Both the position numbers and the translations under genes were made by a program. This document shows positions 1,132-58,254 of a stretch of DNA of 64,000 nt, piece by piece. This DNA is from Eledone cirrhosa (taxonomy: Eukaryota): contig OZ024751.1 of assembly GCA_964016885.1 (NCBI GenBank), positions 24,676,001-24,740,000 on the forward strand, given 5' to 3'. Position 1 is the stretch's first letter. Every line of letters starts with the position of its first letter. The notes under the pieces were generated by a model. It was given only the letters and a program-made list of their open reading frames with translations. It ran no database searches and was not told the DNA's origin.

Positions 1132-1197
1132 TATTTCATTATATATATTTCGGTGATATCATATTAACAATATGCTATGCCTTCCTCAGACAAAATA
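1132..1197 (-). ncRNA. Hammerhead ribozyme motif
   Basis: UAUUUUGU-CUGAGGA-aGG...(cauauu/aauaug hairpin)...CC-GAAA-UAUAUA-UA^AUGAAAUA, with an 8-bp helix I including two GU pairs. The 3' tail is shared with the copy at 34169. Confidence 0.65.
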
Positions 1198-8251: not shown

Positions 8252-8553
8252 CTTTTCAACTTAAGTTTCTCTCAGTTCTGCTGCAAAGCCTAATCAATTT
8301 CATCACGAACTCTCACCTCACTTTCCTTTTACGTTGCCCCGGCAACAACTAGCTACAACATGCAGTCATCGGTTGAGACTCTATCTTTAACTCTTTCGAA
8401 GCTAAACCACTTGAAACCAGCCCTGCTTCAATCCTATTTTCAAGTGTTCATCATCATCATCAACAAAATCCTATGTTTGTTTTCCCATGCTTGCATCTTC
8501 ATCATCATCATCATCATCATTATCACCATTTTATGTCAATTTTTCCACGCTAG

Positions 8554-11500
8554 CAATTGTGTGCAGAACGGTTTCGATGTCCTGCTCGCATCTTGGAAAG
8601 GTTCTTTTGGCAGGATCTCTGCCAGGGCGTCCATGCCTGTAGATTTCATCTCGAACTGGTAGAGCTCCTCGGCAACACTGCCAGGCCAGAGACCTCTGAA
8701 AGTCATCCATAGGCCGTGGAAGGAAAGTCTTCCCGAACAGACTGGTCAGTTCGTCCTCCTCGATGCCTAGAGTTTCCCCGAGAACGCCGTCGCACTTATC
8801 CTCCAATAATCCCCTATAGAATTTCGAAGTGGTGTCTCCGCTGATTTCCATTTCTGCTTGGTAGAGGGCTGTGAGCGCCCGAAGGCACTCGAGGTGCCAG
8901 GCGCCCATTTTCGGTCTTCGCTTGACCCAGGACTGCAGCTCTGTTAGTGAGACGAGTTGTAGCCTCAGCACCTGTTTGCGCATCATCAGCCACAGCATTC
9001 CCAGCCCTCTGTTAGAAGGGTGTTGACAGCAGATGGATCTGCTCACCAATGGAGCCTGTTTCTTCCAAAGGAACTTAAAGAGTAGGCGTTCCATTTTGGT
9101 GAGGTGTTCGCGGGGCCAAGGCACGACTGTCAAGCGGTAATAGATGACAGATGCTATGTAAGTGTTCGCCACCTCCGCTCGACCTTTCAAGGAGAGTTTC
9201 ACTCAGCCCACTTCTAGGTGAGTGCAAACACCTTCGCCATGACCTTGTTCCAGTTCTTGTCCACCTGGAGGTCTGGACCAAACCAGACCCCAAGCAATTT
9301 CACCGGTCCTTCTGTCCAGCATCCAACGACACTGTCAGCAGGCATGGGTTTGCCTCTCCATGTACTGAGTTGCAAACCGACAGTCTTGTTCCTGTCAACG
9401 TTTTATATTCCTGTAATAGGTTGCCGATTACCCCGATGTCCGAGGTTTTCGACACCATTATGGTTACGTCATCGGCATAGGCCGACACTGCTTTCCGCAG
9501 TCCTGGTTCGATCGGGATGCCCTGCAACAGCTCCAACTTCTGCAGTAATGGCTCGAGAGTCAGTACATACAGAATGGAGGAGAGAGGGCATCCGTGAGGG
9601 ATGGAACGCATGATTTGGAATGGCTCCGATAGGTAACCATTCACCTTGACTGCCGAGCAGATGCTGGTATGCATGGCAGCGATCCAGCCTCTGAAGATGG
9701 GACCGAAGCCGGCCGCTTTGAGAACTGCTTACAAGTATTGATGGTCGACCCTATCAAATGCCTTAGACTGATCTAGATTGATCAGAGCTCCACCAAAGCC
9801 CAGCTTACACCCTACCCTCTCTATGATGTATCGTATGAGGTGGAGGTTGTTGTGTATGGACCTGGTCGGGATTGCACATGTTTGCGCTTCCCCTACCAGG
9901 TTCTCAATGCCAAGCACCAGCCTCGCTGCTAACACCTTTGTTTAGGAGAGTTATAGGCCTGAAATTGCTTATCTCATCCCCCTTGTCCTCACCTTTCCTG
10001 ATCTGCCTACAGAACTAGGAATCCTCCCGTTCTGCTGCTAGCTGCAGTAGACCACTTTGAGGATGCCAGAAAACAAGTCTGGCATACCTATGTAAAACGC
10101 ATTAGGGTAGACCATATAAATCGGGAGATTTGTGTTTCCCACAATGGCCTAGGGCATCTTCTATTTCGCCTGCTGTGATTGGCCTTTCGCAGCTCTCTGC
10201 ATCTGTGCTCGAGAGTCGTGGTAGGCCGTCGAAGTAGGAACTGAAGTCCATCACCTCGCTTGACGTACCACTTTTCCCAAACAGTTGTGCAAAGTGCTAC
10301 TGGAAGGCCATGCACATCTGCTTGGATTTAATTAGAATACATCCATCTTTGTCTTGCAAAGACCGAATTGCGGATTTGTTGCCACTTTTCGCCTCTGCCA
10401 CTCGGGCCCAGCTAACAGCTTTGGCTCCCTAGTTTCTTAGAGCACGTGTTCTACTTCTGTTTTTTGTTGAAGAACTGGTGTAGTGCTGTTCTCGCTGCTA
10501 GCACGTCAGCTGTACTGCCATTCCTAAGTGCCTCTTCTTTTCAGTTTTGTTTTTTTCCAAAGCTACTTCCTTGCTAAATGCTATCGATTCTATTCTAATT
10601 GCTCTCTTGAGAGAGCTCCACCACCTGTTGTTAACGATGGCCCCCGTCAACTGTCTCTTAACTAAGGTGTTAATCCGTTCACTGTAGGCTTTACGCGCCG
10701 GGAACGACATGTTTAGCATCCAGTATCTGGGTCCCTGTCTATGTATTCTATCAAGGTTGACTATGCAGGTGACTAATTTGTGGTCTGAATAGGCAACCAT
10801 GTGCATTTGTGGACAGCTTAATGTTTCCTTATCCTTCTGTCTAATTAGAAATCTATCTAAATACGATCTAGAAGACCCAGTGCGGTTGCTGCACGTCCAC
10901 AGTGGTACACTTGGGAAGTCTAGTTGATATCTATCAGCCAGTTGGAATTGGCTGATGAGATTTTTGAGATTATTACACTCCCCTCTATTATCACAAGCTC
11001 CTATGTAGTCCCAACGTGCGTCTAAGATGCCATTCCAGTCCCCCGCTAACACTAAGGAGCGAGACATTCCCAGGAATGGCTCCAGACGCTTGAAGAACTC
11101 TGGTTGCAATGTCCCAGTCGGCGCATATATGACCACCAGGCTGAAGGCTCCACCTTCACTACCAATCACGTCCAGGACCACCAGGCTGGCCTCCAGTTCC
11201 AAGTTAATCATCTGTACTTTGAGATCCAGTTTTTTTCGAAACAGAACAGCAACTCTCCCACCACCTCCTGGCTTACAGAGAGATGTGTAGATCTCAAAAT
11301 CATCGAACATGGGGGTTAGCTGCTGCTTGTCGTAAATCCTGGATTCGGTGATGGCTATCATATCTATACAGTGTGACTTGAGATCATTTAAAAACTGGCC
11401 CTGTTTCCAGGGCATGCCCAGGCCACATACATTCAAATATCCAGCTTGTATAGTCGCCATGTTGGTGAAGAAGAGTTAGGGAGGGAATAGGCAGGAACAC

Positions 11501-13069: not shown

Positions 13070-13402
13070 GAGGCACATGGCTTAGTGGTTAGAGCATTGG
13101 CCTTGCAATCGAAAGGTTGTGAGTTCAATTCTCAGACTGGGTGATGAGCAAGGCACTTTATTTCACATTGCTCCAGTTTACTCAGCTGTAGAAATGAGAT
13201 GATAGGGACTGGGGTCCCTATCATTCCACTGCAAAGTGGTTGTGTAGGTGCCACGACAAAAAAGCACCCAGCATTCACTGTAAATGAGGTTGGTGTTAGG
13301 AAGGGCATCCAGCTGTAGAAATCAAGCCAGAATCAGTTCCCGTCCCACCCTTGCAAGCAGGGAAAAAGCGGACGTAAAATGAAATGATGATGATGATGAT
13401 GA
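13070..13402 (+). mobile_element. tRNA-derived SINE family B with RTE-type (GAT)n tail; related copies ~16055-16210, 18940-19280, 23420-23628, 34420-34590, 43365-43660, 57720-58000
   Basis: A-box tggcttagtggtt, B-box gagttcaatt, core gttaggaagggcatccagctgtagaaa, and tail cggacgt...gatgatgat. Confidence 0.82.
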
Positions 13403-15004
13403 TATATATATATATATATATACTATTTATGTTACTTTGTTTACCAGTGGGTGGAACTGGAGATTCCAGTTAGTAAATAATGATGCAATAAATTAATGCA
13501 CTGAACGTTATGCAGATCATCCACCGTAGAAGTGCTTCCAGTGCCGGAAGTGCATGAAATATTCATTTAAAACAACAACAGAAAGCCGGACTAGAAATTT
13601 TATTATTTTAATTCCGTGAAAACACTATATATATTTCAATGGCCCAGCTTCATCATCCGAATATGATGCAAAACCCAGGTGATTTCATCAGGTGTTAATT
13701 GCAGAATTATATAAGAGAACAGGATTTTGGTGAACACAAACAGAGAATAGAAAATTAAAAATGGAGGACTGATTTAGATTTGGAGATGGCCCGCCAATTC
13801 TGTGTTATTTTAACAGCAGGTTATTCCCGAATGATCTGTTTGATTAAGGTTCACCTCGAATCAAACAACAACAATCCTGGATGGCTCCATACATGGTCAA
13901 TAAAATTGCTAGAAGCAGCAACCCTATCTCACTCAAATCACATCTTACCATCATAAAAAAGGGCAGATATTGTCTTTTACAATTTTTGTATTAATAATTG
14001 TTTCTACTTTAGGCACAAGGCCAGCAATTACTCAGTGCATTACTGGTACTTTATTTTATCGACCCCGTAAGGATGAAAGGCAAAGTTAACCTCGGTGGGA
14101 TTTGAACTCAGACCGCAAAGGGACGTAACTACCGATACTGCCGATCCACTGCCCAATTTTTGTATTAATAATGGTTCCTGATACATGCATGTGGCCAACA
14201 ATTTTGTGGGGAGGGGTAAGTTGATTAAATCGACCCCAGTGCATTACTGGTGCTTTATTTCATCAACCTCGTAAGGATGAAAGGCAAAGCTAACCTCAGC
14301 GGGATTTAAACTCAGACTGTAAAGGGCCATAATTCTAAGCTGCAAAGCATGGTGTCTGGCACTCTACGATACTGCCAATACATTGTTGTATTTATATTAT
14401 TAATAAAAAACAAGATGGCATTGATATTGAACTGTGAACCTGGTAACAGGGATTCATTTGTTTCATAAATTGGAAGAGTCATGAGAGTATAGGACAAAAT
14501 GCCTTGTGGTAGTTTTTTTCAGCTTTCTAAGGCCTGAGTTCAAATTCAACCCAGGGTCTACTTTGTCTTTCATTCTTTCATGGAGGAAGAGGGTCGATAA
14601 ATCAAAGTACCAGTGTGATGTGGTGGACTGGCGGTATTTCTAGGTCATCGGGGGAGGGGGAAGTTTATAGAGGGTCAGATAGAATGGTTTGTAGTATTTA
14701 TTGTGGTGCTGTGAGCACACACATCCCACCAAAGGTCAACTTTGCCTTTCATCCTTTCGGCAGGAGGAAGTGGTTGATAAACTGAAGTACCAGTCACATA
14801 CTGGGCTGAACATAACAGCTGGAACTGATAGGTGTCTGACATAACAAGAGGAACACCACACCTGCTATCACCATTACCACCAACAACAACACGACTATCA
14901 CCACCAACGCCAACAACAACAAAAACAACAACAACACCACTATCATCACCAACACCACCACCAACAACACCACCACCAACAACACTATCACCACCACCAC
15001 CACC

Positions 15005-19438: not shown

Positions 19439-19685
19439 ACACACTGGAAGGTAATATCCATAGTGGTAGAGCACTCAGTCCATGGGACGAGTTTGGTAGG
19501 AGTAGTAACACACCAGTTAGTTCACCATACCGAGAAACAATTGTTTTCGGTATGTTGAACTAACTGGTGTGTTACTACTTATATATATATATATGTATGT
19601 AAAAGGTAAACAGAAATAACAACACAATCAGTACAGTATATGGAAGGAATATATTAGGTTAATGCTTGATATAGCAGGAAGAGGG

Positions 19686-19984: not shown

Positions 19985-20230
19985 GAAATAAGGTAATGAA
20001 AGGGTTAACCCTTTCATTTGAAATATGGTAATGTAAGGGTTAACCATTTCATTTGAAATATGGTAATGTAAGGGTTAACCCTTTCATTTGAAATATGGTA
20101 ATGTAAGGGTTAACCATTTCATTTGAAATATGGTAATGTAAGGGTTAACCCTTTCATTTGAAATATGGTAATGTAAGGGTTAACCATTTCATTTGAAATA
20201 TGGTAATGTAAGGGTTAACCCTTTCATTTG
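19985..20230. repeat. 35-bp tandem repeat (~7 copies) with alternating variants
   Basis: Unit gaaatatggtaatgtaagggttaacc[c/a]tttcattt. Confidence 0.9.
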
Positions 20231-24619: not shown

Positions 24620-25679
24620 TAGGGAATGTCGAAACATGTGACTAAAATCCTAGTCATTCAGAACATTTAGGGTACATAATTGTTGTTAGTGTCATAGGCA
24701 TCATGTGGAGAGTCAGGAATTAAAATACCACTAACCAGCTAGTACTTAGTACTACCCTCCATATTTATAGTTGTATTAAACATATATAAATATAAATATT
24801 CTTATTACTATATATATATATATATATATATAATAAAAAGGATGATATGTTATGCCTTCATTACATTTATTGAGTAGCGATGTGTGTTTTACTATCAATC
24901 AGATCAGCCCAAGGTTCGATCAGTATCGTCGATCTAGCCTGACTCACAAAAGCTTGTCAGCCTCAAAGTTGATATTTTGCAGAGTTAGTGCTGCTTCTAG
25001 GATATGTTTAAAGTGGTTCTCCTCAGATGGTATGAGAAATTGCAGGAAGATGGCCACAAAGTTACTATTTCCTAGGGTTAGTGCAGCTTCCAGGATATGT
25101 TTAACCTTTTAGCATTTAAACCAGCTGCATCCAACCAGAATTCTCTCACCCCTTTCTGTTCAAACTGGCCATAACTGGTCACTCATACTTATGCTAAGGT
25201 ATTATTCTCAAAATAAATAACATCAAAATCTCATAGATTCAATATTATGTAAGATAAAGCCTTTACCACGAAAATACAATACTAAATATAAAGTAATATA
25301 AATGGTAAAGTGTTAAAGCTGCTATGAACATACTTGTGCATGTTCCATCAAATTTCTTCTCAAGTCTCTCTATAATTTGACGGCTGCAGCTTGAAAAAGT
25401 ACGCCTCCTTCATACACATATTTAGAGTGGGTAAGGGGTTGGGATATATTGAAGATGTCTGAGGTAGGGATTATGGAGGATGTCTTAGTTCTAATATAGA
25501 CATTTACTTCATGATTGGCTTGGCTTGGCTTGGCTTTTACGAATGAAATGTTTACAAGTTTAGAATCCAACGGTCTTGTCCGCTAGAGATTTTGTTTATT
25601 GTTGGCTTTGTTTTCCAAATGCATTATTTATGTATAGGGTATTGGTGATTGCTTGGGTTTGTTCGATATATATATATAT

Positions 25680-25881
25680 ATAGGAAAATGTATCACCCGG
25701 ACGGCAGAGCTCAAGCCGTTTCGACGGCTATTTCTGGACATATTGCGTCCAGAAATAGCTGTTGAAACGGCTTGAACTCTGCCGTCGGGGTCATTCATTT
25801 TCCTATTACCCACTCTACTACCCTAAGTATTGAGTACTCTGGTGCGTTATGGTCCATATGGTTCCTTACCACAACTCCTTC

Positions 25882-25884
<3 letters not shown>
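25680..25884. repeat. Imperfect hairpin (25680-25806) plus family tail, between (TA)n tracts
   Basis: ~60-bp arms around atattgc. The tail ctactaccctaagtattgagtactctggtgcgttatggtcc is shared with the 31.2, 31.4 and 35.7 kb copies. Confidence 0.85.
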
Positions 25885-25931
<47 letters not shown>

Positions 25932-25952
25932 CACACACACATATATATATAT

Positions 25953-26828
25953 AAGAAGACTTCTTGATATTAGTGTTGTGGAGGGAGTATGTGGACACTG
26001 GGTTTTTACTCCCAAAATGCATGGTGATACACTTGTCCACAGCCAGCTTGAGTTGCCAGTCTGTGATCCATTGCTGCCTTGTGTCCAGGTCTGATTGCAG
26101 GAACGATCTATAGTGTTCAGGATCTATCCTTTTTATCTCAAGGTACAGCTTAGCTTGATGTCAGCTGCATATTTCAGTACTGTGGCATTCTTTAAGTTGG
26201 CATCTATGTCATTAATATATGCCACAAACAAAAGGGGACCAAGAACAGATCCCTGCGGTACACCAGATGACATCTCATACGGTAAGGAATGCTGTCCTAG
26301 AACCGTTGCTACTTCTCTCCGACTGAGAATGAAGGACTTCAACCAGATAAAAAGATCATCCTTCACACCCATTGCAGAGAGTTTTGCCATAAGTCTTTTG
26401 TGTGGCACAAAATTAAAAACTTTAGCAAAGTCAAGGTAAACAACATCCACCCATGAGCCGCTATCAGTGATCTGGGTTAGGTCTTCAAGAAACTCGATAA
26501 GTTGATCACAGCAGCTGGAGTTAGGGATAAATCAAAATTGCGAGGGCCAGATAAGACCATGAGAGTTCCAGAAGTTCCAAAGTGTTTCTCTGACACAGGA
26601 TTCCATCAGTTTGGCAATGCAGCTAGTAAGACTGACTGGACGATAGTTGACAGGTGATGTGCGGTCACCCTTTTTGAACAGAGAAATGACACTGGCAGTT
26701 TTCCATTGCTCCAGAGTAGCACCTTTGTTAAGACAGAATTGAAAGAAGGGTGATAGCTGGTGCAGAAGGAAGTACCTTCCATGTTTGAGAAGCAGGTACA
26801 TTAACTCCATCAAGACTAGGAGAGGCAT
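25953..26828 (-). mobile_element. CR1/L2-group LINE RT fragment
   Basis: NYRPVSLTS, VYLDFAKVFNFVPH, SGVPQGSVLGPLLF, KYAAD (degenerate YADD) and KCITMHFG, in frameshifted pieces. Confidence 0.88.
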
Positions 26829-27292
26829 AGTTGCGTTTATTCTTCTATTGTTATATTTGGGGAGGGTCCATATTGTTATAATATTGCCAGAAATAATTGT
26901 TTCTACTTTTGGCACAAGGCCAGCAATTACCCAGTGTATTACTGGTACTTTATTTTATCGACCCCCGTAAGGATGAAAGGCAAAGTTAACCTCAGCGGGA
27001 TTTGAACTCAGACCATAAAGGGCTGTAACTCTTTGCTGCAAAGCATGGTGTCAGACCCTCTACCGATACTGCCAATCCACTGCCAGAAATAATAAAATAC
27101 ACTCACTGTTTGGTTTGGATCGTTTTGCGCTTCTGTATCTTTTATATCTCCATAGTTAATTTATCTGGCAATCAATATTAGATAAATTAACTATCGAGAT
27201 ATAAAAGATACAGAATCGAAAACCGATCCAAACCAAACAGTGAGTATATATATATATATATATATACATATATATTTATATATATACATATA

Positions 27293-27354
<62 letters not shown>

Positions 27355-27479
27355 AAAAAGGGTTTTATTTACAGTCTTAACAATTGTTCCACTGATTAAG
27401 TTGTCTAAAAATTGGTGAACACTTGAAGCTGTGCCACTCAATTTTAAATACGATGTTAGCTTAACCAGATCATCAGAAA

Positions 27480-27517
<38 letters not shown>

Positions 27518-28089
27518 ATAATACGGTTTCCTAAATAGAATATTAGTCTAATGACTCCGTTTATACCATAAACGTGGTTTTGTCTTTCCGTGTAATTGTT
27601 CTCATCGCTCCACATAACGACATATTATCTTCACTATTTTCCATTCATTACCAGGGAACGTCTTTACGAACCAAAGTATCATCTTCCTGTTTTCCTGCGC
27701 TTGCAACGTTTTTCGAAATATTTACTTCTGCGTTCGTAGATTGATTTTTTTTAGTTTCAGAAGATTCCGTTAAGGGTGAAAGCGGCGATTCTTTGCTTAA
27801 ACTTTAATCTGTGAAGTGGACGTGTAAAAGATATGGCAAAAAGCACCCAGCACGCACTGTCAATGTGGTTGGCATTAGGAAGGGCATCCAGCTGTAGAAA
27901 ACCAGCCAGAAACTATCCTATATGAGTGAGACATGGTTACCTAACCCAACTTACCTCTAATTGGGACAAACCCGTCTAACCCATGCTAGTGTGGAAGACA
28001 ATGACGATGATGATGATAATTCAGTAATATTGCATCTCAACTTTCATGTTTTATCAGAAAAGATTACAAAATGGAATCCCAGCTGCACA

Positions 28090-28945
28090 GGAATAGTGGA
28101 ATTGTGGAATTGTGGAATGGTAGAATGGTGGAATGGAGGAATGGTGGAATAGTGGAATGGAGGGATGGTGGAATGGAGGGATGGTGGAATGGTGGAATAG
28201 TGGAATGGTGGAATGGTGGAGTAGTGAAATGGATGGATGGTGGAATAGTGGAATGGTGGAATGGTGGAATAGTGGAATGGTGGAGTAGTGGAATGGTGGA
28301 ATGGAAGGATGGTGGAATGGTGGAATAGTGGAATGGAGGAATGGTGGAATGGAGGGATGGTAGAATGGAGGGATGGTGGAATGGTGGAATGGAGGGATGG
28401 TGGAATGGTGGAATGGTGGAATGGAGGGATGGTGGAATGGAGGGATGGTGGAATGGTGGAATGGTGGAATGGAGGGATGGTGGAATGGTGGAATGGTGGA
28501 ATGGTGGAATAGTGGAATGGTGGAGTAGTGAAATGGAGGGATGGTGGAATGGTGGAATGGTGGAATAGTGGAATGGTGGAGTAGTGGAATGGTGGAATGG
28601 AAGGATGGTGGAATGGTGGAATAGTGGAATGGAGGAATGGTGGAATGGAGGGATGGTAGAATGGAGGGATGGTGGAATGGTGGAATGGTGGAATGGAGGG
28701 ATGGTGGAATGGTGGAATGGTGGAATGGAGGGATGGTGGAATGGAGGGATGGTGGAATGGTGGAATGGTGGAATGGAGGGATGGTGGAATGGTGGAATGG
28801 AGGGATGGTGGAATGGTGGAATGGAGGGGTGGAGGAATGGTGGAATGGTAGAATGGGGGGATGGTGGAATGGTGGAATAGAGGGGTGGTGGAATAGAGGG
28901 GTGGTGGAATGGTGGAATGGTGGAGTAGTGGAATGGTGGAACTGG
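28090..28945. repeat. (GGTGGAAT)n-based 8-bp satellite
   Basis: Direct reading. It generates the spurious MVEWWNGG ORFs. Confidence 0.95.
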
Positions 28946-29349
28946 TTTTTAACTGAATATTTTAGAAATTGCCAGTTTTAGGTGTGATAGTTGGAGGGAG
29001 GTTGTGGGGAGGGGGATACAATGAGGAATGGGGAGAGAGAGAGAAGTAGAAGAATTTAGTGAGGAATTAAGTTGGAGAGAATGATAATGTGAGGGCGTGA
29101 GCAGAGAGAGGTGGGGTAGGGAAAAGAGGGAGAGGGAGGAAGAGAGGAGAGTGAGGGAGAGAAAGGAAGAGAGGACAGAGAGAGAGGGAGAAAGAGAGGG
29201 AGAAGTAGAGAGAAAGAGAGAAAGAGAGAGTGGGAGAAAGAGAGAGAGAGTTATCAAATATTGAGACTAAGCAGAAAAGATGTCCATATCTTGTTCATAT
29301 ATTCAATTTTAACACAGTTTCAATGTCTGGATATCCATCTTACAATCAA

Positions 29350-29860
29350 CTACTTTACAGAGTGTACTGGGTGCATTTTATTGTGACATCAGCACTACTA
29401 TTTTACAGAGTGTACTGGGTGCATTTTATTGTGGCATCAGCACTACCACTTTACAGAGTGTACTGGGTGCATTTTATTGTGGCATCAGCACTACCACTTT
29501 ACAGAGTGTACTGGGTGCATTTTATTGTGGCATCAGCACTACTATTTTACAGAGTGCACTGGGTGCATTTTATTGTGGCACCAACACTACCATTTTACAG
29601 AGTGTACTGGGTGCATTTTATTGTGGCATCAGCACTACCACTTTACAGAGTGTACTGGGTGCATTTTATTGTGACATCAGCACTACCACTTTACAGAGTG
29701 TACTGGGTGCAATTTATTGTGGCACCAGCACTACCACTTTACAGAGTGTACTGGGTGCAATTTATTGTGGCACCAGCACTACCACTTTACAGAGTGTACT
29801 GGGTGCAATTTATTGTGGCACCAGCACTACCATTTTACAGAGTGTACTGGGTGTATTTTA
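29350..29860. repeat. 48-bp minisatellite (~10 copies)
   Basis: Unit ttacagagtgtactgggtgcattttattgtggcatcagcactaccact. Confidence 0.92.
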
Positions 29861-30164
29861 TGCAAGATACTACAAGGCTTTGGTTATCTTCTATATGGAG
29901 GCACCGCAAGGGTTTTGCAAAGTGGGGAGATCACCCCCAGGTGAGTGGTACTAAAACTGTGTTTCTTTGCCCTGGGGCCCTGCGAGAACTTGTAAGGCCA
30001 CTGGTCCCATATAATTCCTTCTGTATATACCAGATTGAGAGAGAGAGGTGTATGAGAGAGAGAGAGAGAGGGAGAGGTGTATGAGAGAGAGAGAGAGAGA
30101 TGTATGAGAGAGAGAGGTGTATGAGAGAGAGAGAGAGGGAGAGAGATTTATGAGAGAGAGAATG

Positions 30165-30364
30165 NNNNNNNNNNNNNNNNNNNNNNNNNNNNNNNNNNNN
30201 NNNNNNNNNNNNNNNNNNNNNNNNNNNNNNNNNNNNNNNNNNNNNNNNNNNNNNNNNNNNNNNNNNNNNNNNNNNNNNNNNNNNNNNNNNNNNNNNNNNN
30301 NNNNNNNNNNNNNNNNNNNNNNNNNNNNNNNNNNNNNNNNNNNNNNNNNNNNNNNNNNNNNNNN
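30165..30364. other. Assembly gap (200 N)
   Basis: Run of N within a GA-rich repeat. Confidence 1.
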
Positions 30365-31086
30365 AGAGGTGTGTATCAGAGAGAGGTGTATGAGAGAGAG
30401 AAAGGAGGAAACATTAAGAAAAAGCTGCTGCTGTTGATGATGATGATGATAATGATGATGATGATGATGATGATGACAATAATGACGATGATGATGATGA
30501 CAATAATGACGATGATGATGATGACGATGATGATGATGATGATGATGAGGATGATGATGATGATGAGGATAATGCTTATGATAATGACAATGATGATGAA
30601 GTTGATGATGATGGATGCTTTAGAGATGAAGTAATTGTGATGTAGGAGAAGACTAAATAAATCAATAAATATATAGACAACAACAACAATAAATAGTGAA
30701 TAACAAAAGGATGAAAGTGATGAAAAAGCCAAACAGCCACCTCGTTAATTAGTGGCTGAGTAATAATTATTATCGAAGAAAATGAAGCAAACTTAACAAC
30801 AATGTACATGTATGTGTGTGAAGTATATATATATATATATATATATATACATAGTGGATGTAAAATGATGATGATGATAAATATATATGTATATTTATCT
30901 GTGAAAATTTGGTGATGGAATAGTTATATCTTGTGTTGTCCACTTTCTAATTAAATAGCTCTGTTCTATATATAGAGCACTCTTTTTTCCTTTGTTTTTT
31001 TCTTCGGAAATACTTCACACACACACACACACATATATATATCATCATCATCATCACCGTTTTACATGCTAGCATCAGTTAGACGG

Positions 31087-31228
31087 GAGTCCAGAAATAG
31101 GCGTTGAAACAGCTTGAGTTCTGCCGTTGGGGTCTTGAACATTTTCCTATATATATATATATATATAGGAAAATGTTCAAGGCCCCAACGGCAGAGCTCA
31201 AGCCATTTCAACGGTTATTTCTGGACTC
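31087..31228. repeat. Imperfect inverted repeat with (TA)n loop, same family as 25.7/31.5/35.7 kb
   Basis: gagtccagaaatag...cattttcc (ta)n ggaaaatg...ttatttctggactc, with several mismatches between arms. Confidence 0.85.
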
Positions 31229-31475
31229 TACTACCCTAAGTATTGAGTACTCTGGTGCGTTATGGTCCACCTGGTTCCTTACCACACTTCCTTCATTATG
31301 ATGATATATATAAAAATGTAATCTGAGTTTTTCAAATATTAATAATAATATTCGTTTCATTTGCAATTATGCATATATTATGCAATTATATATATATATA
31401 TATATATAACGAAGGAACCAAGTGGACCATAACACACCAAAGTACTCAATACTTAGGGTAGTAGAGTGGGTAATA

Positions 31476-31698
31476 GGAACGAGTAGGACCCCGATGGCTG
31501 AGCTCAAGCCATTTCGACGGCTAATTCTGGACTAAATGAAAATTTTTATCCTGAATAGCCGAGCTTCTCAGGGGGTAATTCCATGGAATTACCCCCTGAG
31601 AAGCTCGGCTATTCATATACCAGGATAAAAATTTTCATTTAGTCCAGAATTAGCCGTCGAAACGGCTTGAGCTCAGCCATCGGGGTCCTACTCGTTCC
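31476..31698. repeat. Palindrome, ~110-bp arms, centred on CCATGG (31581-31586)
   Basis: Direct reading shows reverse-complement arms with one short indel and one mismatch. Confidence 0.9.
31591..31686 (+). ncRNA. Hammerhead-like motif with variant core (mirror copy in left palindrome arm)
   Basis: ACCCC-CUGAGAAG-cucGGCUAUUC...GAAUUAGCCGuc-GAAA-cGGCU...AGCCa-UC^GGGGU. The sister copy at 25764-25791 has canonical GAAA-CGGC...GCCG-UC^GGGGU. The core deviates from CUGANGA. Confidence 0.55.
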
Positions 31699-32040
31699 AT
31701 ATATATATATATATTATATATATATATATACATATATATATACATATATCAATAATTGTTTCTACTTTAGGCACAAGGCCAGCAATTACCCAGTACATTA
31801 CTGGTACTTTATTTCATCGACCCCGTAATGATGAAAGGCAAAGTTAACCTCGGCGGAATTTGAACTCAGACTGTAAAGAGACGTAACTATGCTAGTTCAC
31901 CGCCCTTTATACATATATCAATAATATTGATCATTTGCAATTATGCATATATTATGCAATTATATATATACATATATATATGTATATATATATATATGTA
32001 TACAGTTGAAAATTGCAAACTTGACTGTCACCACAGAATA

Positions 32041-32079
32041 TGAACCTGAAGATTGCAAAAGCACGAAAGTACTTGTTCA
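32041..32079 (+). ncRNA. Minimal hammerhead ribozyme motif (helix II base mismatched)
   Basis: UGAAC-CUGAAGA-u UGC aaaa GCA c-GAAA-GUAC-UU^GUUCA, with a 5-bp helix I and palindromic helix III AGUACU. Confidence 0.6.
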
Positions 32080-32230
32080 ATTAACACTTAACATTTAATA
32101 TTCTACCATACTATTTCATTCTAATACCATTATAAATTTTAAAGGATTGTAAATAAAACGAGTAAATCAGACAAAGTTGGAATTCCTTTTATTAATATAT
32201 ATATATATATTTTTATATATATATATATAT

Positions 32231-32909
32231 ATAGAAGAAGTTAATATGCCCGTGGGTACTAAGTACCCCTGGAAATATATAGGTTGTCTATGATTTAAGG
32301 TTGTTCTATGGTATTAATTTGACATACCAGAACTATAATATTAAGATAAGCAGAACAAGCAAAATTCGACCAATTTTTTAAAACAAAATTAAAAAAAATA
32401 TAATTTAAATATTTACCTATTCTTTTGGCCCTTACCGATCGGTTTCGCTTTGTAAAACACCAGAAATCCAATGGATTTCCAATGGAAAATCAAAGCTCAT
32501 CAGAGAAGCATTTTCCTTTCCTAGGGCTAAAGACCCAGGAACGATAAAATATATTGTTATCTGCCAGCTAGCACAGATTCGAAAGGCCAAAAAATGACCT
32601 GTACGTGAACTAACCGAGGTGAAAGCGGGAAAAGCATAGACGTGTTGTCTATCTCGTTACTAAAAATAGCAGCTAAATATAAACAACAGATTTGTTCTCA
32701 ACATAACGGAGAATATTAATAGAAGAAGTTAATATGCCCGTGGGTACTAAGTACCCCTGGAAATATATAGGTTGTCTATGATTTAAGGTTGTTCTATGGT
32801 ATTAATTTGACATACCAGAACTATAATATTAAGATAAGCAGAACAAGCAAAATTCAACCAATTTTTTAAAACAAAATTTAAAAAAATATAATTTAAATAT
32901 TTACCTATT
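32231..32909 (-). mobile_element. Non-coding element with ~190-bp terminal direct repeats (period 488 bp) enclosing a hammerhead; Penelope pLTR/retrozyme-like
   Basis: 32231-32421 is nearly identical to 32719-32909, with the HHR at 32428-32509 and TA-rich microsatellite on both sides. Confidence 0.6.
32428..32509 (-). ncRNA. Type I hammerhead ribozyme
   Basis: gcuucu-CUGAUGA-GCUUUG...CAAAGC-GAAA-CCGAUCGG-UA^agggc: intact core, 6-bp helix II base, palindromic helix III ACCGAUCGGU, GUA triplet. Confidence 0.78.
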
Positions 32910-32993
32910 ATATATATGTATGTATATATATATATATGTATATATCATCATCTCATCATCACCTTCGTTTAACGTCCATCTTCCATGCTAACA

Positions 32994-33039
<46 letters not shown>

Positions 33040-33675
33040 TCCGACCTCACACACTTACACCTCTCCAAGACAATGTCACTGGACCGAGACCTTTGGCGGT
33101 ACTCAGTAACAGAGAAGACCCGCCTTACCTAAATACATAGTAAAACCTACTACAGCCAGTAGGCATCTCTAACAAAATCCCCCCCACCCCGTCCCACCAC
33201 CCCCACCCCGTTCTATGTAAAGTTGTGTTGGTGCCACACCATCCAGGCCGAAACAAATGAGATCATGTAGGTGTCACGACAAAAAAACACACAGTCCACG
33301 CTGTAATGTGGCCGTGTAGGCAACACGGTAAACACCTCCCAGACCCACACTGTAAATGTGGTTGGTGTTAGGAAGGGCATCCAACTGTAGAAAACCTGCC
33401 AGACAGTCCTATGCGAGCAAGACAATCACTCTTGCCTCAAGTGGGACTACCCCCATCCAAACCCATGCAAGCGTGGAACACGGACGTTAAACGTTGATGA
33501 TGATGATGATGATGATGATATATATATATATATATATATATGTAGATAAATCTATCAAGAGTTTACGGTAGTGTCCAATCCGTATGAAGAACTCAATGTA
33601 TTCCGGATATCATGGAAAGAAGAGATGTAATGAAAAATCACTTTCGGTGAAAGATAAACTGAATACAGAGTCAAG

Positions 33676-34104
33676 ATAAAATATTAAACAAATAATGAAT
33701 AAAACAATGAAACAGTTCCTTATATTAAACAAAAAAAGTTCATTATTTAACGATCGTTTCTAGGATATATATGTGTTAGAATTGGCATGCATATTCAACA
33801 GATCTATGTACAAAATTATACAAAATTATACAAACTATCAAGATTAAATATACATACCAAACACACATATATGCCGTCTTCAGAAATAATACATTATTTC
33901 TGAAGACGGCATATATGTGTGTTTGGTATGTATATTTAATCTTGATAGTTTGTATAATTTTGTATAATTTTGTACATAGATCTGTTGAATATGCATGCCA
34001 ATTCTAACACATATATATCCTAGAAACGATCGTTAAATAATGAACTTTTTTTGTTTAATATAAGGAACTGTTTCATTGTTTTATTCATTATTTGTTTAAT
34101 ATTT

Positions 34105-34107
<3 letters not shown>
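33676..34107. repeat. Long inverted repeat, 215-bp arms, 2-bp spacer
   Basis: The arms read as reverse complements around 33891-33892, and the right arm ends in (TA)n. Confidence 0.9.
33892..34042 (+). ncRNA. Hammerhead ribozyme with ~115-nt helix II domain (mirror copy on - strand at ~33741-33890)
   Basis: CAUUAUUU-CUGAAGA-[AUAUAUGUGU...ACACAUAUAU]-GAAA-CGAUCG-UU^AAAUAAUG, with a perfect 8-bp helix I. The base of helix II is imperfect. Confidence 0.6.
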
Positions 34108-34143
<36 letters not shown>

Positions 34144-34168
34144 GTATATATACATAGGCAAAAGGGAT

Positions 34169-34227
34169 ATTTTATCTGAAGAGAGCGAACCAAAGTTCTG
34201 GTACCCTTGAAATATATATAATAGAAT
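34169..34227 (+). ncRNA. Hammerhead ribozyme motif
   Basis: AUUUUAU-CUGAAGA-GAG...CUU-GAAA-UAUAUA-UA^AUAGAAU, with a 7-bp helix I. Same downstream tail family as 1093-1150. Confidence 0.6.
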
Positions 34228-34280
34228 AAATATTGCTTTATAAATATAGTTTCCATTTATTTAATATCATTGTATATATA

Positions 34281-34400
<120 letters not shown>

Positions 34401-34800
34401 GAATAATAATATATATATATACACTGTAAATGTGGTTGGTGTTAGGAAGGGCATCCAACTGTAGAAAACCTGCCAGACAGTCCTATGCGAGCAAGACAAT
34501 CACTCTTGCCTCAAGTGGGACTACCCCCGTCCAAACCCATGCAAGCGTGGAACACGGACGTTAAACGTTGATGATGATGATGATGATGATATTATTAGAA
34601 AGTGAGGGTTTTTTTTTACAAAATGAAAAAAAACGAGATGTCCTACATGAGTGAAAGTATAAGGGGAAAAGAAGAAATCGAAAATGCAACTTTTATAAAA
34701 AAATATATATGTATGTGGTTCCTTTACCGGTTTCGCAGTTCTTGTGCTTTTCAAAAGTAGAATTGAGATGGAGGGTTTGTGGTTTTTCTCGCACCTGTAC

Positions 34801-34834
<34 letters not shown>

Positions 34835-35131
34835 GTATGCGTGTGCGTGTGTGTGTATATATATATATTAATATATATGTATATATAGTGAAGGCGCATG
34901 GCTTAGTGGTTAGAGCATTGGGCTTGCAATCAAAAGGTTGTGAGTTCAATTCTCAGACCGGGCTTTATTTCACGTTGCTCCAGTTTACTCAGCTGTAGAA
35001 ATGAGTACCGGCCTGCCCGCGCAGCCAGTGGGATGGCGTTATCTTATGGCTAAAACAGCACGACGTGCTGTGACCAGCAGCGCCGACTGGCGCCCGACAG
35101 ACTGGTCGGTCAAGATGATATATATATATAT

Positions 35132-35503
35132 ATGAATGTATATATAGTATATTTGGCAATATACTGTAAGCTTAATTAAAAGCATTTTGAAGACCTTGCC
35201 CTATTATTTTAATCTCACTCCTTTATTGCGCTATTATTTTATGTCACTCCCTTTTTCCAACTCCCTTTGTTTGTTGAAAAAAGAAGTAAGTGACATAGTC
35301 ACTACTTTAAAACAATAGCGTAAGGTCTTCAAAATGCTTTTAATTAAGCATACAGTATATGTAGTTCTTCTATAGTTCACCTGTAGTTCACCAATAGTTC
35401 TCCTATAGTTCTTCTATAGTTCACCTGTAGTTCACCAATAGTTCTCCTATAGTTCATCTATAGTTCACCTGTAGTTCGCCAAATATACTATATATACATT
35501 CAT
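35132..35503. mobile_element. Fold-back/MITE-like element whose right arm is interrupted by an 11-bp satellite
   Basis: atgaatgtatatagtatatttggc-atatactgtaagcttaattaaaagcattttgaagacctt is mirrored at 35321-35360 and 35478-35503, separated by (tagttcaccaa)-like units. Confidence 0.65.
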
Positions 35504-35530
35504 GTATACATCGCTATTTCAGAGCACCAA

Positions 35531-35562
<32 letters not shown>

Positions 35563-35682
35563 GGAACCAGTAAGACCCCAATTTTTTCGCATGGTGCGGG
35601 TGAAATGAATTGAGCTTAGCGGAAAAGTCTGGATACGGCGTGGTAGGGTCGGAAAGTGCTCTACTACGGGAGTAGGAGCTAG

Positions 35683-35878
35683 ATAACGAAGGAAATGTGG
35701 TAAGGAACCAGGTGGACCATAACGCACCAAAGTACTCAATACTTGAGGTAGTAGAGTGGGTAATAGGAACCAGTAAGACCCCGGGGTCTTACTGGTTCCT
35801 ATTACCCACTCTACTACCTCAAGTATTGAGTACTTTGGTGCGTTATGGTCCACCTGGTTCCTTACCACATTTCCTTCG

Positions 35879-35882
<4 letters not shown>
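35683..35882. repeat. Perfect palindrome, 100-bp arms, no spacer
   Basis: ataacgaagg...gtaagacccc|ggggtcttac...ccttcgttat, centre 35782/35783, followed by (TA)n. Confidence 0.92.
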
Positions 35883-35916
<34 letters not shown>

Positions 35917-36067
35917 ATACATTATATTATATTACATATACATATATTATATTATATATATGTATGTATGTATATACATTATATTATATTACATATACAT
36001 ATATTATATTATATATATATATATGTATGTATGTATATACATTATATTATATTACATATACATATAT

Positions 36068-36135
<68 letters not shown>

Positions 36136-36399
36136 GCCCACACATACACAGAGCAATGGTTTCTTGCCCTTGAAAAAAGCCAGATTCAAAGCAATTTTGA
36201 GGCTGTTGAGATAATAAAAACTTTCTGACAGTAGCTGACATGGGAACTTCCCCACAGAGTTTCCCACTTATAGCTGTTTTATGTCTGTTGCCTTTGGCAC
36301 AGAATGTTCCCATCAGACCAGACAAGTCCATTTCAGCATACATTAACCGAGATTCCTTCTCTGACCCACATTCTATTAAACTTCTGAACTCAAGAGTTC

Positions 36400-36890
36400 A
36401 CAAATAGTTCACCCAGAGTTTAGTTACAGTTCACCTATAGTTCCCCTATAGTTCACCAATAGTTCACCTATAGTTCATCGATAGTTCACCAATAGTTCAC
36501 CAATAGTTCATCGATAGTTCACCAATAGTTCACCAATAGTTCATCGATAGTTCACCAATAGTTCTCCTATAGTTCACCAATAGTTCTCCTATAATTCACC
36601 AATAGTTCACCAATAATTCACCAATAGTTCATTGATAGTTCACCAATAATTCTCCTATAGTTCACCAACAGTTCATCTATAGTTCACCAATAGTTCTCCT
36701 ATAGTTCATCAATAGTTCACCAATAGTTCATCTAGAGTTCACCAATATTTCATCTATAATTCATCTATAGTTCACTTATATTTCATTTATAGTCCACCGA
36801 TAGTTCATCTATAGTTCTCCTATAATTCATCTATAGTTCTCCTATAGTTCATCTATAGTTCTCCTATAGTTCATCTATAGTTCACCTCTA
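36400..36890. repeat. 11-bp satellite (tagttcaccaa)n
   Basis: Direct reading. A smaller array lies at 35362-35478. Confidence 0.92.
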
Positions 36891-40369: not shown

Positions 40370-41480
40370 GCTATGAAATGTTGAAGGTATCTGGAATGGT
40401 GGGACATATTGGAATGCTGGGTACATAAAATATGTAGTGGGATCAGAGGTAAGCTATCTAAGAATGTAGATTTTATATATGGCCAATGCTCAAGTGCAGT
40501 TAGTAGCAAGGACCCACTGGATGCTTTCTCCTTCAACTGCCCAGATGGTTCTAGAGAAATAGTAGACACATTCCGTTACCTGGGTGACAAAATCAGCAGT
40601 GGAGGAGGGTGCTCTGAAAGTGTAGTAGCCAGAGTTAGAGCAGGATGGAAAAAGTTCAGAGAGCTAATACCACTGTTGGCCACAAGGGGTTTTTCTCTAA
40701 AAGTGAAAGGCAGATTGTATGATGTGTGCATACGAACGACGATATTACATGGTAGTGAGACCTGGGCGCTGTGTGTAGAAGACTTGCGTAGATTAGAAAG
40801 AAACAAAACTTGCATGCTCCGATGGATGTGTAATAGTAATGTGCGTGAATGGCGAAGCACAAAGGAATTAAGAGAGAGACTAAGCATAAGAGGTATCAAA
40901 TGTTGTGTTCTGGAGAGGAGATTGCGTTGGTATGGACATGTGATGTGTATGAAGGACGACAGCTGTATAAAAAAGTGCAGGGCAATGAAAATTGATAGAA
41001 GCTATGGAGTGGGTAGTCCAAGAAAAACCTGGGACGAGGTGATAAAAACTGACCTTGCCCACTTACACCTCTCTAAGACAATGTCACTGGATCGAGATTT
41101 TAGGTCCTATACAGTTGTACAGAAGACCCGATTGCCATTGCATACAAACCTACATTCAGTAGGCACCACTTAACCCAATGTACACCCCACCCCACACACC
41201 TTACCCCACACACCATACCCCATCCTCCCTTTCCTGTTCCCTCCACTGTGTTGATGACACAACACTCCACACTGTAAGGTGGCCGTGTAGGAGACATGGT
41301 AAAAAGGCTCCCAGTCCACACTGTAAATGTGGGTGGTGTTAGGAAGGGCATCCATCTGCAAAAATAACCTGCCATAGACACTTCCGTACAAGCGAGACAT
41401 GGTCTCCCAACCATTCTCGCATCAAATGGAACAAAACCGTCTAATCCATTCTGGAAGATGTACGTTGAACGATGATGATA
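40370..41480 (+). mobile_element. Internally deleted RTE LINE 3' part with 3'UTR and (GAT)n tail
   Basis: ORF 40409-41173 contains FRYLGD, ILHGSETW, RRLRWYGHV and GSPRKTW. The first ~40 bp match 17862-17895 and then jump past the RT domain. Confidence 0.88.
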
Positions 41481-43300: not shown

Positions 43301-44299
43301 TGTGTGTGTATATATATAGAAATAGCCGGGCTAGACACCCGATCGCACGGTTAAACCATATATATCATCATCATCATCATCATCGTTTAACGTCCATCTT
43401 CCACGCTTGCATGGGTTTGGACGGGAGTTTTCCCACTTGAGGCAAGATTGGTTGTCCTGCTCGTATAGGACTGTCTGGCGGGTTTTCTACGGCTGGATGC
43501 CCTTCCTAACACCAACCACGTTTACAGTGTGGACTGGGAGGTTTTTACCGTGTTACCTACACGGCCACATTACAGCGTGGACTGTGTGTTTTTTTGTTGT
43601 GACACCTACACGACCTCATTTGTTTCGGACTGGATGTTGTGGTACCAACATAACTTCACATACATATATACAAATACACATACATATATACATATATACA
43701 CATACATATGAATATACAAGTGGAGAGATGCTGTGCTGATAGGACCCACCCAACCTTTGCAAGCAGGGAAAAGCAGACGTAAAATGATGATGATGATGAT
43801 GATACACACACACATAATATATATATATACACATATATAAATACACATACACACTTACAAACACATACATATACATATATACACATCACAAAAATGTAAG
43901 AAAAGGGGGTGTTGGTGTTTTGAGATGAGTGATGGGGTTACCATGGCATGACAGGGTCGGTAACCCCCTAAGTAAGACATTGGCCCCTCGCAAGATGGGC
44001 AAACAGATGGGTCAAATAAAAAAGAAAACTTTTTTTGCTCTACATGGCTGAATACAATAAATGTAATCTGAGTTTTTTTAATATTAACATTCGATTCGTT
44101 TGCAATTATTCAAACAAGCCTCAATTTTATAGCCATGTCAGTAGAATGAACCCTTCATTCTTGCTCTTGTGTTGGCATGTGAACAGAACTGCAGACACTA
44201 ATGTTTCTGGCTATCACACTTCATCAGTACAACTCACTGTTCACCTACCAAACTGTCAGAGCTAGTGAAAATATATGCTATTTTAAAAAATACACAGTG

Positions 44300-46737: not shown

Positions 46738-48265
46738 ATTTCATTTATCTTGCTTTATGTTCATATGAGTTATCACCAAGTCACAACCAGTGACAACAAG
46801 ATCTGCCATGTTCAAGAAAGAACATACACACACACACATGTATCTTTAGGTGTTTAGACTTGTGATATATTTATATTGACAGAATCTTCTTTAGTATAAG
46901 GGCAGTTCCCATTAGTACTATCTTTTGTAATTCTTCTATACGCGGGTTTCCTGGGTTTTAGGATAAGTAAGCATTAGACCCTTTAGGTATCATTCCTAGA
47001 GCGCCTACAACCACTGGTATTGTTTTAGTTCTCAACTTCCACATTTTTCCAATTTTTATCTCCAGGTCTTTAACTTGCTCAATTTTTCAAATGTTTTTAT
47101 AGATACATTCTTGTCTATAGGAATGGTCATATCAATTAGCAGGCATACCCTCTTTTTAAAGTCCTTCAGTATTATATCAGGTCTATTTGCATCTATCTGT
47201 TTGGATGCTAAAGTTCCACAAAATTAAGATGTGACCTTTTTCAAGTACAGGAGGTGGTTGATGCTCCCACCAATTCTTTTGATGAGGCAGGTCAAAATGC
47301 TTACACATTACCCAATATATGTATTGTGCAGCTCTGTCATGCCTATTTAGGTATTCGGTTGGAGCTATAGGACTGCACATTGAAATTATATGATCAATGG
47401 TTTCTGGTTGTTTTTTACATACACGTCATAATGGGTTGCATTCATTTTTTATGATGTTGGCTTGATAATTTTTTATTGGCAGACACTGATCTTGTGCTGA
47501 TATAATCAGTCATTCAGTCTCCGATTTCAGTCCAGAGGATGCCAACCAATGATGGGTTAAAGTTTTGTCAACATCAGGATTGTTAGCTCTTTCTGGGTAT
47601 TTTCCATACAGAGGCTTTTCTTGCCATTTCTTAGCCAGTTTCTGAAGCAGTTCTTTCTTTGCAGTTACTTTTACCTGCTTTGCTTTTTCTGTGTTTTTCA
47701 TTTCAGCAGTAAATGGAACTTCTGAAATGTGTAGTTCATTACTGTATCTTTGTGTATCTTTTGTAATGGAGTGTGATCTTTTGATGCTTTCATGTTTCAA
47801 AACGAGTTTGATCATCCAATCATGTGATTCCCTTAGATATGTAGATAATCCAATTGTTGCAGTTTTCAAAGAAATATCTAACTGGATTAATCCATGTCCT
47901 TCTTCTTTCCTAGGGAGATATATTCTATCTGTATCTGCCTTAGGGTGATGCATTCTGTGCATGGTTAAGAATTTTCTAATTTTCGTATCGAGCCTACGGA
48001 TCTCTGTGCTTGACCAGTTGATGACATTGAAACTGTAGGTTACTACTGGTATGACAAGTGTGTTTATGGCATCGATCCTGTTCCTTGCATGCGACTCCGT
48101 TCTTAAGATTGTTCTTACTCTGCGGTAACATTCCTCCCTTATCCTTTCCGTCATTGTCGAATGCTTGATTCCGTCTCCTTCACAAACACCTAGATATTAG
48201 CTAGTTTGTTACTGTCGATATAATCTCTGTTTTCAGGATGTTTCTTTTTTCAGTTGATATACGTT
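46738..48265 (-). mobile_element. R4/Dong-clade (restriction-like endonuclease) non-LTR retrotransposon 3' part
   Basis: ORFs 47510-48154 (HHPKAD.DRIYLPRKEEGHGL) and 47183-47380 (YLNRHD, WNFSIQTDR). The 3' end abuts (TAA)n at 46690-46737 on the element strand. Confidence 0.88.
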
Positions 48266-58199: not shown

Positions 58200-58254
58200 A
58201 CTGCTATATATATTTCGGTGACAGCCATCTTTGGCTGTGACCTCTTCAGGCAGT
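58200..58254 (-). ncRNA. Type I hammerhead ribozyme, Penelope-type
   Basis: ACUGC-CUGAAGA-GGU c ACAGCCA aaga UGGCUGU c ACC-GAAA-UAUAUA-UA^GCAGU: complete core, 5-bp helix I, long helix II, palindromic helix III. AAUAAA follows immediately. Confidence 0.8.

What the first reader, a model, noticed from the sequence alone, without database searches (positions are those of the whole stretch)
35561..35882. Perfect 2x100-bp palindrome centred exactly on the predicted hammerhead cleavage site
Seen: sister copies show GAAA-CGGC...GCCG-UC^GGGGUC (25764-25792; 31659-31687), so the 3' cleavage product would begin GGGGUC. The palindrome 35683-35882 has its axis at gacccc|ggggtc, exactly that nucleotide, and has no upstream ribozyme sequence. 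A third, inverted stub (35561-35579) also stops at the same cccc. Inference: this is a genomic fossil of in vivo self-cleavage, where reverse transcription ran to the cleaved 5' end and then snapped back or jumped template, fixing a hairpin insertion.
Basis: partly seen in the sequence, partly recalled or inferred. Interest (0 to 1): 0.8.

Follow-up and report, generated by a model that had tools for sequence, protein, structure and literature searches.

The report
Mini Penelope retrotransposon ending at ribozyme
The palindrome is a miniature insertion of a common Penelope-type retrotransposon, whose inverted layout is well known; its one unusual feature is that two internal junctions fall at the predicted ribozyme cut, hinting that this single copy was made from self-cleaved RNA although most copies were not.

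Summary
The palindrome is real: 2x100 bp, perfect, axis 35782/35783. It belongs to an abundant repeat with Penelope-like (PLE) anatomy: (TA)n target, two fixed 3' ends 20 and about 100 nt past a type I hammerhead-like site, and head-to-head inversions. The insertion 35560-35882 has the published Penelope layout: two direct pLTR pieces around a 103-nt spacer, plus an inverted pLTR with tail. Both pLTR pieces start at the predicted cleavage nucleotide. The three sister insertions end at -40, -42 and -93. Depth falls only 1.8-1.9% across the site in two RAD runs, a weak test, because the enzyme cut and hairpin loss bias it. The core reads CUGAGAA, not CUGANGA, and the axis can also be read as a 2-nt CG overlap on uncleaved RNA. 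Verdict: known kind of element. This copy plausibly (about 0.55) records a rare insertion from self-cleaved RNA, with a template jump and a fold-back. One locus, not proof.

The parts
35536..35559 (.). left (TA)n target tract
   Evidence: sequence
35560..35579 (-). 3' pLTR stub, element positions +1 to +20 (+1 = first base after the predicted cut); ends at the family's short 3' end
   Evidence: 20/20 match to the arm; same end joined to (TA)n in 2945 and 2467 reads at 31473
35580..35682 (-). 103-nt spacer S, continuing the left arm past the long 3' end; origin not shown (start of the element body, or captured DNA)
   Evidence: no second copy in the window; no Rfam match listed at these coordinates; 9-bp complement to the arm, 20 of 1000 shuffles as long, but no folding-energy gain (119 of 300)
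35683..35782 (-). left arm: pLTR +1 to +100 with tail
35783..35882 (+). right arm: inverted pLTR +1 to +100, ending at the family's long 3' end
   Evidence: long end joined to (TA)n in 4835 and 4877 reads
35883..35908 (.). right (TA)n target tract
   Evidence: sequence
31488..31576 (-). type I hammerhead-like motif of the family in a sister copy: stem I 5' strand 31576-31572, core CUGAGAA 31571-31565, GAAA 31515-31512, stem III hairpin, predicted cut 31493/31492
   Evidence: descriptor scan; letters checked against reads
31409..31698 (.). sister insertion, inverted pair, axis 31585/31586 (element position -93)
25683..25886 (.). sister insertion, inverted pair, both arms begin at -40, 7-nt loop
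31087..31299 (.). sister insertion(s): short copy, (TA)n, inverted short copy, then 3' part; 5' ends at -42
33543..34107 (.). control: palindromic insertion of a second family with canonical CUGAAGA hammerhead; 215-bp perfect arms, axis just 5' of stem I, not at its cut site

Best explanation
35560-35882 is a young, miniature insertion of a Penelope-like (PLE) retroelement family into a (TA)n tract (class assignment about 0.9). It has the typical Penelope plan: two direct pLTR pieces around an internal segment, plus an adjacent inverted pLTR with tail. Most likely history of this copy (inferred): the template RNA had a physical 5' end at +1, made by the family's hammerhead. Reverse transcription primed in the nicked (TA)n target at the +20 start site and ran 20 nt to the cut end. 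It then jumped to a point about 203 nt into the same or another cut transcript, copied the spacer and +100 to +1, and stopped at the cut end again. The right arm came either from fold-back on the cDNA, resolved at +100 against the TA target, or from a second cDNA primed at +100 on the other target strand. This is a minority route; most copies were copied from uncleaved RNA and extend 5' of the site. Shown: geometry, fixed 3' ends, target, junction positions, most reads crossing the site. Inferred: self-cleavage, template jump, order of events, origin of the spacer.
For: Two fixed 3' ends into (TA)n at +20 and about +100 in thousands of reads match the two RT start sites and 'tail' of PLEs (PMC11167929; PMC8557442). 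The direct+direct+inverted pLTR plan, palindromes at inverted junctions and captured spacers are described for Penelope (PMC3846280). The hammerhead-like motif has stems I-III, CUGA, GAAA and NUH in order; the descriptor gives 8 hits in the window against a mean of 0.4 in 30 block shuffles. The site was predicted from the fold of sister copies, independently of this insertion, and both the stub/spacer junction and the axis fall on it. A rough uniform null over about 115-195 positions gives 1-2% per junction, so about 1e-3 or less for two in one of 4 insertions (my estimate, post hoc). There is no extra G at +1, as a capped RNA might leave (weak). Arms and stub are identical, so one young donor.
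Against: The core is CUGAGAA: either N7 is missing or G8 is A. No other letter at 31565-31570 is among the 40 of 155 rows listed, no insertion there among the 12 of 15 rows listed (depth about 150-200), and one contig of organism B reads the same; activity is therefore unproven. 0 of 3 sister insertions end at +1. Depth drops 1.9% (X12) and 1.8% (X13) across the bin holding the site, against 1.4-4.4% in the next bins. No loose-end pile at 31492/31493 is among the six listed per RAD run (smallest 503 and 597 reads; 421 rows not shown). The axis can be written as two arms overlapping on the native C17-G1.1 dinucleotide, which needs no cut. The spacer's own continuation is unknown, so microhomology at the stub junction cannot be excluded. 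For the Anolis PLE, cleavage was not needed in vitro, unprocessed RNA was the main template, and no RNA-seq reads began or ended at the site (PMC11167929).
Confidence: 0.55

Rival explanations
1. Same PLE insertion, but copied from uncleaved RNA. The RT paused or slipped at the G-run of stem I and the three-way junction; the axis formed by a 2-nt CG overlap or a micro-hairpin, and the stub/spacer junction by microhomology. The match to the cut site is structural or coincidental.
For: Non-canonical core; no family-wide step; other axes at -40, -42, -93 and, in the second family, just 5' of stem I; the native CG straddles the site; uncleaved RNA dominates for the Anolis PLE.
Against: It needs two junctions on the same nucleotide, the one predicted independently as the scissile bond. 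The 3-nt loop that a micro-hairpin snap-back would leave is absent.
Confidence: 0.3
2. The RNA's 5' end at +1 is real but not ribozyme-made: a transcription start of the pLTR promoter, or a donor locus already truncated at +1 (possibly a 203-nt tandem or circular unit of arm plus spacer).
For: PLE transcripts start within pLTRs (PMC6765202, passage); the minus strand reads arm-spacer-arm start, like a tandem unit.
Against: A start site falling exactly on the predicted scissile bond would be a further coincidence. No cap-derived extra G. The junction is not the GUC/G join that a ribozyme-ligated circle would restore. No tandem copy in the window.
Confidence: 0.08
3. Fold-back artefact of sequencing or assembly.
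Against: The right arm stops at the family's natural long end and enters (TA)n, while the left arm runs into the spacer, so the inversion is bounded by element ends and not by a read end. Older, diverged inverted copies of the same family (86-93% arm identity) have the same plan.
Confidence: 0.04
4. A TA-targeting DNA transposon (MITE or foldback type) with long terminal inverted repeats.
For: Inverted arms and a TA target.
Against: The ends are unequal (+20 and +100), the inner ends vary between copies, and a hammerhead-like motif lies inside; these are PLE traits.
Confidence: 0.03

Closest known systems
Endonuclease-containing Penelope-like elements, e.g. Pen2a_Av of Adineta vaga (PMC3846280, passages) and the general PLE plan (PMC8557442, passages)
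   Same: Two direct pLTRs plus an adjacent inverted pLTR, tail at one end only, palindromes at inverted junctions, captured spacers, microsatellite target, type I hammerhead in the pLTR.
   Different: No ORF (body reduced to 103 nt); the distance between the two 3' ends is about 80 nt rather than 30-40; both pLTR pieces begin at the predicted cut; core CUGAGAA.
Poseidon PLE of Anolis carolinensis, PAc (PMC11167929, parts 1-2 of 4 read)
   Same: Two RT start sites downstream of the hammerhead defining a tail; AT-rich target; both target strands cut and extended in vitro.
   Different: For PAc, cleaved RNA was not needed and no RNA ends were seen at the site; here one genomic copy has junctions there.
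Animal non-LTR retrozymes (PMC7229834, passages; bioRxiv 10.64898/2026.07.22.740005, parts 1-2 of 5)
   Same: Non-coding, type I hammerhead, related to PLE pLTRs.
   Different: Retrozymes are head-to-tail tandems with a ribozyme in each unit; these copies are dispersed head-to-head inversions, and this one lacks the ribozyme.
R2 retrotransposon 5' junctions (PMC11204384, passages)
   Same: Ribozyme-defined template 5' end, template jumping and cDNA snap-back are all documented there, so the proposed steps work like R2.
   Different: R2 uses an HDV-type ribozyme (PMC6765202, passage), targets 28S rDNA and has no pLTR or tail; not a member.

Membership tests
Penelope-like element (EN+) | pLTRs in direct and inverted arrangement, 5'-truncated | tested here: met
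   4 of 4 insertions in the window hold inverted arms; this one also two direct pieces
Penelope-like element (EN+) | tail: two alternative fixed 3' ends | tested here: met
   ends at +20 and about +100 joined to (TA)n in thousands of reads; longer than the published 30-40 nt
Penelope-like element (EN+) | AT-rich or microsatellite target | tested here: met
Penelope-like element (EN+) | hammerhead motif in the pLTR | tested here: inconclusive
   motif present but with a non-canonical core
Penelope-like element (EN+) | RT plus GIY-YIG ORF in a master copy; clade assignment | not testable with these tools
   no genome held; none of the window copies carries a body beyond the 103-nt spacer; pattern scans of three collections gave 0 loci
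Type I hammerhead ribozyme | stems I, II, III around GAAA and NUH, G10.1-C11.1 pair, extra base after A9 | tested here: met
   stem I 5 bp and stem III 5 bp; stem II read by eye; unconstrained folds did not give the hammerhead fold
Type I hammerhead ribozyme | core CUGANGA with a C3-G8 (or U3-A8) pair | tested here: not met
   CUGAGAA in both arms of the one copy that has it, no alternative listed in reads, same in one organism B contig
Type I hammerhead ribozyme | self-cleavage after NUH | not testable with these tools
   needs an in vitro assay or RNA end mapping
Non-LTR retrozyme | head-to-tail tandem units, each with a ribozyme | tested here: not met
   no tandem units in the window; not tested genome-wide

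The most novel reading that the evidence does not exclude
This copy is a genomic record that a Penelope hammerhead with an unusual CUGAGAA core cleaves in the germ line, and that the PLE reverse transcriptase accepts the cleaved 3' product, runs off its 5'-OH end and jumps template, R2-style. A small, single-nucleotide excess of junctions at the scissile bond across thousands of copies and many families would then give an in vivo read-out of PLE ribozyme activity from genome sequence alone, and a new active core variant.
Probability: 0.4. Interest if true: 0.68.

Novelty: new member of a known kind. Interest (0 to 1): 0.38.

Why it matters
The role of hammerheads in EN+ PLEs is stated to be unclear (PMC8557442), and the one reconstituted PLE used uncleaved RNA, with no RNA ends seen at the site (PMC11167929). 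Junctions at the scissile bond in genomic copies would be a cheap, countable proxy for cleavage in vivo, and this genome holds many families and copies to count (8 motifs in 64 kb). I found no paper reporting such junctions in searches of an open-access library that lacks most subscription papers and two directly relevant ones. As it stands this is one locus in an otherwise ordinary PLE family.

Tried and rejected
Whole-genome copy collection: no genome held. Exact-pattern scans of metagenome, prokaryote-genome and viral collections: 0 loci each. Rfam: no hammerhead family at gathering threshold in the window or at E<=5 in 25000-36500; the microRNA hits are hairpin noise below their thresholds. 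Unconstrained RNA folding of the sister copy did not return the hammerhead fold and was not significant (z -1.86 and -0.66). Arm-plus-spacer folding was not significant (z -1.07; gain 119 of 300 and duplex 131 of 300 shuffles as good); the spacer's C-rich skew is common in the window (154 of 617 windows). The T-A change in stem III of the 31409 arm was rejected as covariation, since both changes fit CpG decay. Read-end peaks at 31526, 31537 and 31580 were rejected as biology: 31526 and 31580 end on AATT, most likely the library's restriction site (inferred), and 31537 probably on a variant AATT. The organism B contig with a loose end at 31492 continues into stem III, so it is not a truncation. 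Sequencing-run search: no RNA holder listed. Earlier scan notes: nothing found. Pure snap-back of the right arm onto itself was rejected, because the left arm continues into the spacer and not into the TA target. No protein search was run; the insertion has no convincing ORF.

Full report
Observation. The stretch 35683-35882 is a perfect zero-loop palindrome with 100-nt arms, and 35560-35579 repeats its first 20 nt in inverted form and stops at the same base. The whole insertion sits in a (TA)n tract. The window is animal-like repeat-rich DNA of 36.5% GC; its SINEs look like those of octopus, which is recalled and comes from no call. PLEs are reported as recently active in Octopus vulgaris (PMC13282606, passages).

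The family. BLAST of the window finds four insertions: 25683-25886, 31087-31299, 31409-31698 and 35560-35882. All four hold inverted arms. Taking +1 as the first base after the predicted cut, their inner ends lie at -40, -42, -93 and +1. I laid four public runs on the sister monomer 31404-31592. 18,047 of 12,467,656 reads (X12) and 18,353 of 12,785,554 (X13) were laid, as were 9,719 of 16,285,364 contigs (X1) and 3 of 3,257,293 contigs of organism B (X4). The family is therefore abundant and present in a second species. Its outer ends are fixed: (TA)n joins at +20 in 2945 and 2467 reads, and at the long end (about +100) in 4835 and 4877 reads.

This is PLE anatomy. Craig et al. describe an inverted 5'-truncated copy, a tail at one end only, microsatellite targets and hammerheads in pLTRs (PMC8557442, passages). 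Arkhipova et al. describe two direct pLTRs plus an adjacent inverted pLTR, palindromes at the inverted junction and captured spacers (PMC3846280, passages). Frangieh et al. show that the tail lies between two RT start sites and that both target strands are cut and extended (PMC11167929, parts 1-2 of 4; supplement 1 gave only figure labels). Read on the minus strand, the insertion is arm (+1 to +100), spacer (103 nt), arm start (+1 to +20), preceded by the inverted arm: a Penelope in miniature. A second family in the window has the same plan at 33543-34107, with 215-bp perfect arms, a canonical CUGAAGA hammerhead and an axis just 5' of stem I, not at its cut. So palindromes as such are ordinary here.

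The ribozyme. A descriptor scan finds the family motif at 31571 (minus strand): stem I 5 bp, CUGA, long stem II, GAAA, stem III 5 bp, NUH. The scan gives 8 hits in the window, 7 canonical, against a mean of 0.4 in 30 block shuffles. Metazoan PLE hammerheads have a long stem II and an extra base between positions 9 and 10.1 (PMC4209133, parts 1-2 of 4), which fits. But this family's core reads CUGAGAA, so either N7 is missing or G8 is A. Reads list no other letter at 31565-31570 (40 of 155 rows shown) and no insertion there (12 of 15 rows shown), at depth of only about 150-200, and one organism B contig reads the same. Rfam found no hammerhead, and unconstrained folds did not give the fold. The motif is hammerhead-derived; whether it cleaves is open. 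The donor subfamily of the palindrome might carry a different core; I could not see it.

Across the bin that holds the site, total depth falls 1.9% (X12) and 1.8% (X13), against 1.4-4.4% in the following bins; in the mate class not anchored on the 31526 end it falls 5.5% and 4.3%, against 3.1-5.9%. No pile of read ends (threshold one fifth of depth) and no loose end among the six listed per run lies at 31492/31493; 421 rows were not shown, and the smallest listed hold 503 and 597 reads. The summed contig depth of X1 shows no step at the site either, though it halves between about +27 and +6, where a variant subfamily breaks alignments; the tool warns that this is no copy number. Limits: about 7,000 reads per run end at 31526, an AATT site that selects copies reaching -34; hairpin molecules amplify poorly, and only one strand-switch joint was listed (31479 to 31521, one start); RAD samples a fraction of loci. 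The test excludes a large peak, not an excess of a few percent.

This copy. Two junctions fall on +1: stub/spacer and the axis. If ends were spread evenly over the 115-195 positions in play, each would hit the site with 1-2% chance, and two in one of four insertions with about 1e-3 or less; this is my rough, post hoc estimate. Two caveats reduce it. The native sequence has C at -1 and G at +1, so the axis can be written as a 2-nt overlap of two uncleaved copies. The spacer's own continuation is unknown, so microhomology at the stub junction cannot be ruled out. The spacer is unique in the window. It has a 9-bp complement to the arm (20 of 1000 shuffles), but no folding gain, so its being the element's native downstream sequence is inferred, not shown.

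Mechanism. The simplest account (0.55) is a template with a physical 5' end at +1 made by self-cleavage: priming at +20, run-off after 20 nt, a jump to about +203, run-off at +1 again, then fold-back or joining to a second cDNA primed at +100. Template jumping and snap-back are documented for R2 (PMC11204384, passages). Equal inner ends of both arms in the sister copies and in the second family favour fold-back or self-priming as the general route. The main rival (0.3) is pausing and microhomology on uncleaved RNA, which agrees with the odd core and with the Anolis result that unprocessed RNA is the main template. An assembly artefact is unlikely (0.04) because the arms are bounded by natural element ends and older diverged copies share the plan, but this locus was not itself checked in reads.

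Novelty. The element is a new member of a known kind. Junctions at the scissile bond were not found in print in searches; the library lacks most subscription papers, and PMC5850863 and PMC5785218 were not held. A similar argument from breakpoints at ribozyme sites has been made for a virus (PMC11014351, passages). The finding is worth a genome-wide count and an in vitro assay, and on present evidence it is one suggestive locus. Interest 0.38.

Noticed in passing
window 33543-34107: Young palindromic insertion of a second PLE-type family: 215-bp perfect arms, canonical CUGAAGA hammerhead with palindromic stem III, one arm about 133 nt longer; axis just 5' of stem I.
   Followed up: partly
window 1140-1189(-), 13626-13691(-), 34176-34220(+), 44194-44227(-), 58205-58249(-): Five more canonical type I hammerhead motifs that Rfam misses; 1189 and 34176 look like one family beside (TA)n.
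   Followed up: partly
window 27097-27249, 19501-19579, 35159-35360: Further inverted pairs ending at or near (TA)n, probably other PLE-type insertions.
   Followed up: no
window 31565-31571 (-): The CUGAGAA core is shared with a contig of organism B; a conserved non-canonical core could be an active variant or an old inactivation.
   Followed up: partly
window 31583-31588 and 33891-33892: In two different families the inversion axis lies right at the 5' boundary of the ribozyme domain (just 5' of stem I); a possible preferred stop or pLTR start.
   Followed up: no
window 35580-35595 (-): The spacer ends just after an ATG in a good start context, and arm plus spacer are open in one frame; may be the start of the element's ORF, but not above chance.
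   Followed up: no
window 31087-31228: Two tail-to-tail short copies separated only by (TA)n form a 71-bp-arm inverted repeat.
   Followed up: no
window 13076-13139 and 34899-34956: tRNA-like matches, probably heads of a tRNA-derived SINE.
   Followed up: no
window 19995-20228: Tandem array of about 35-nt units, each with an internal palindrome.
   Followed up: no
window 8531-11475, 25795-26954, 40385-41173, 47510-48196: Decayed LINE-like endonuclease and RT reading frames (recognised by eye, not searched).
   Followed up: no
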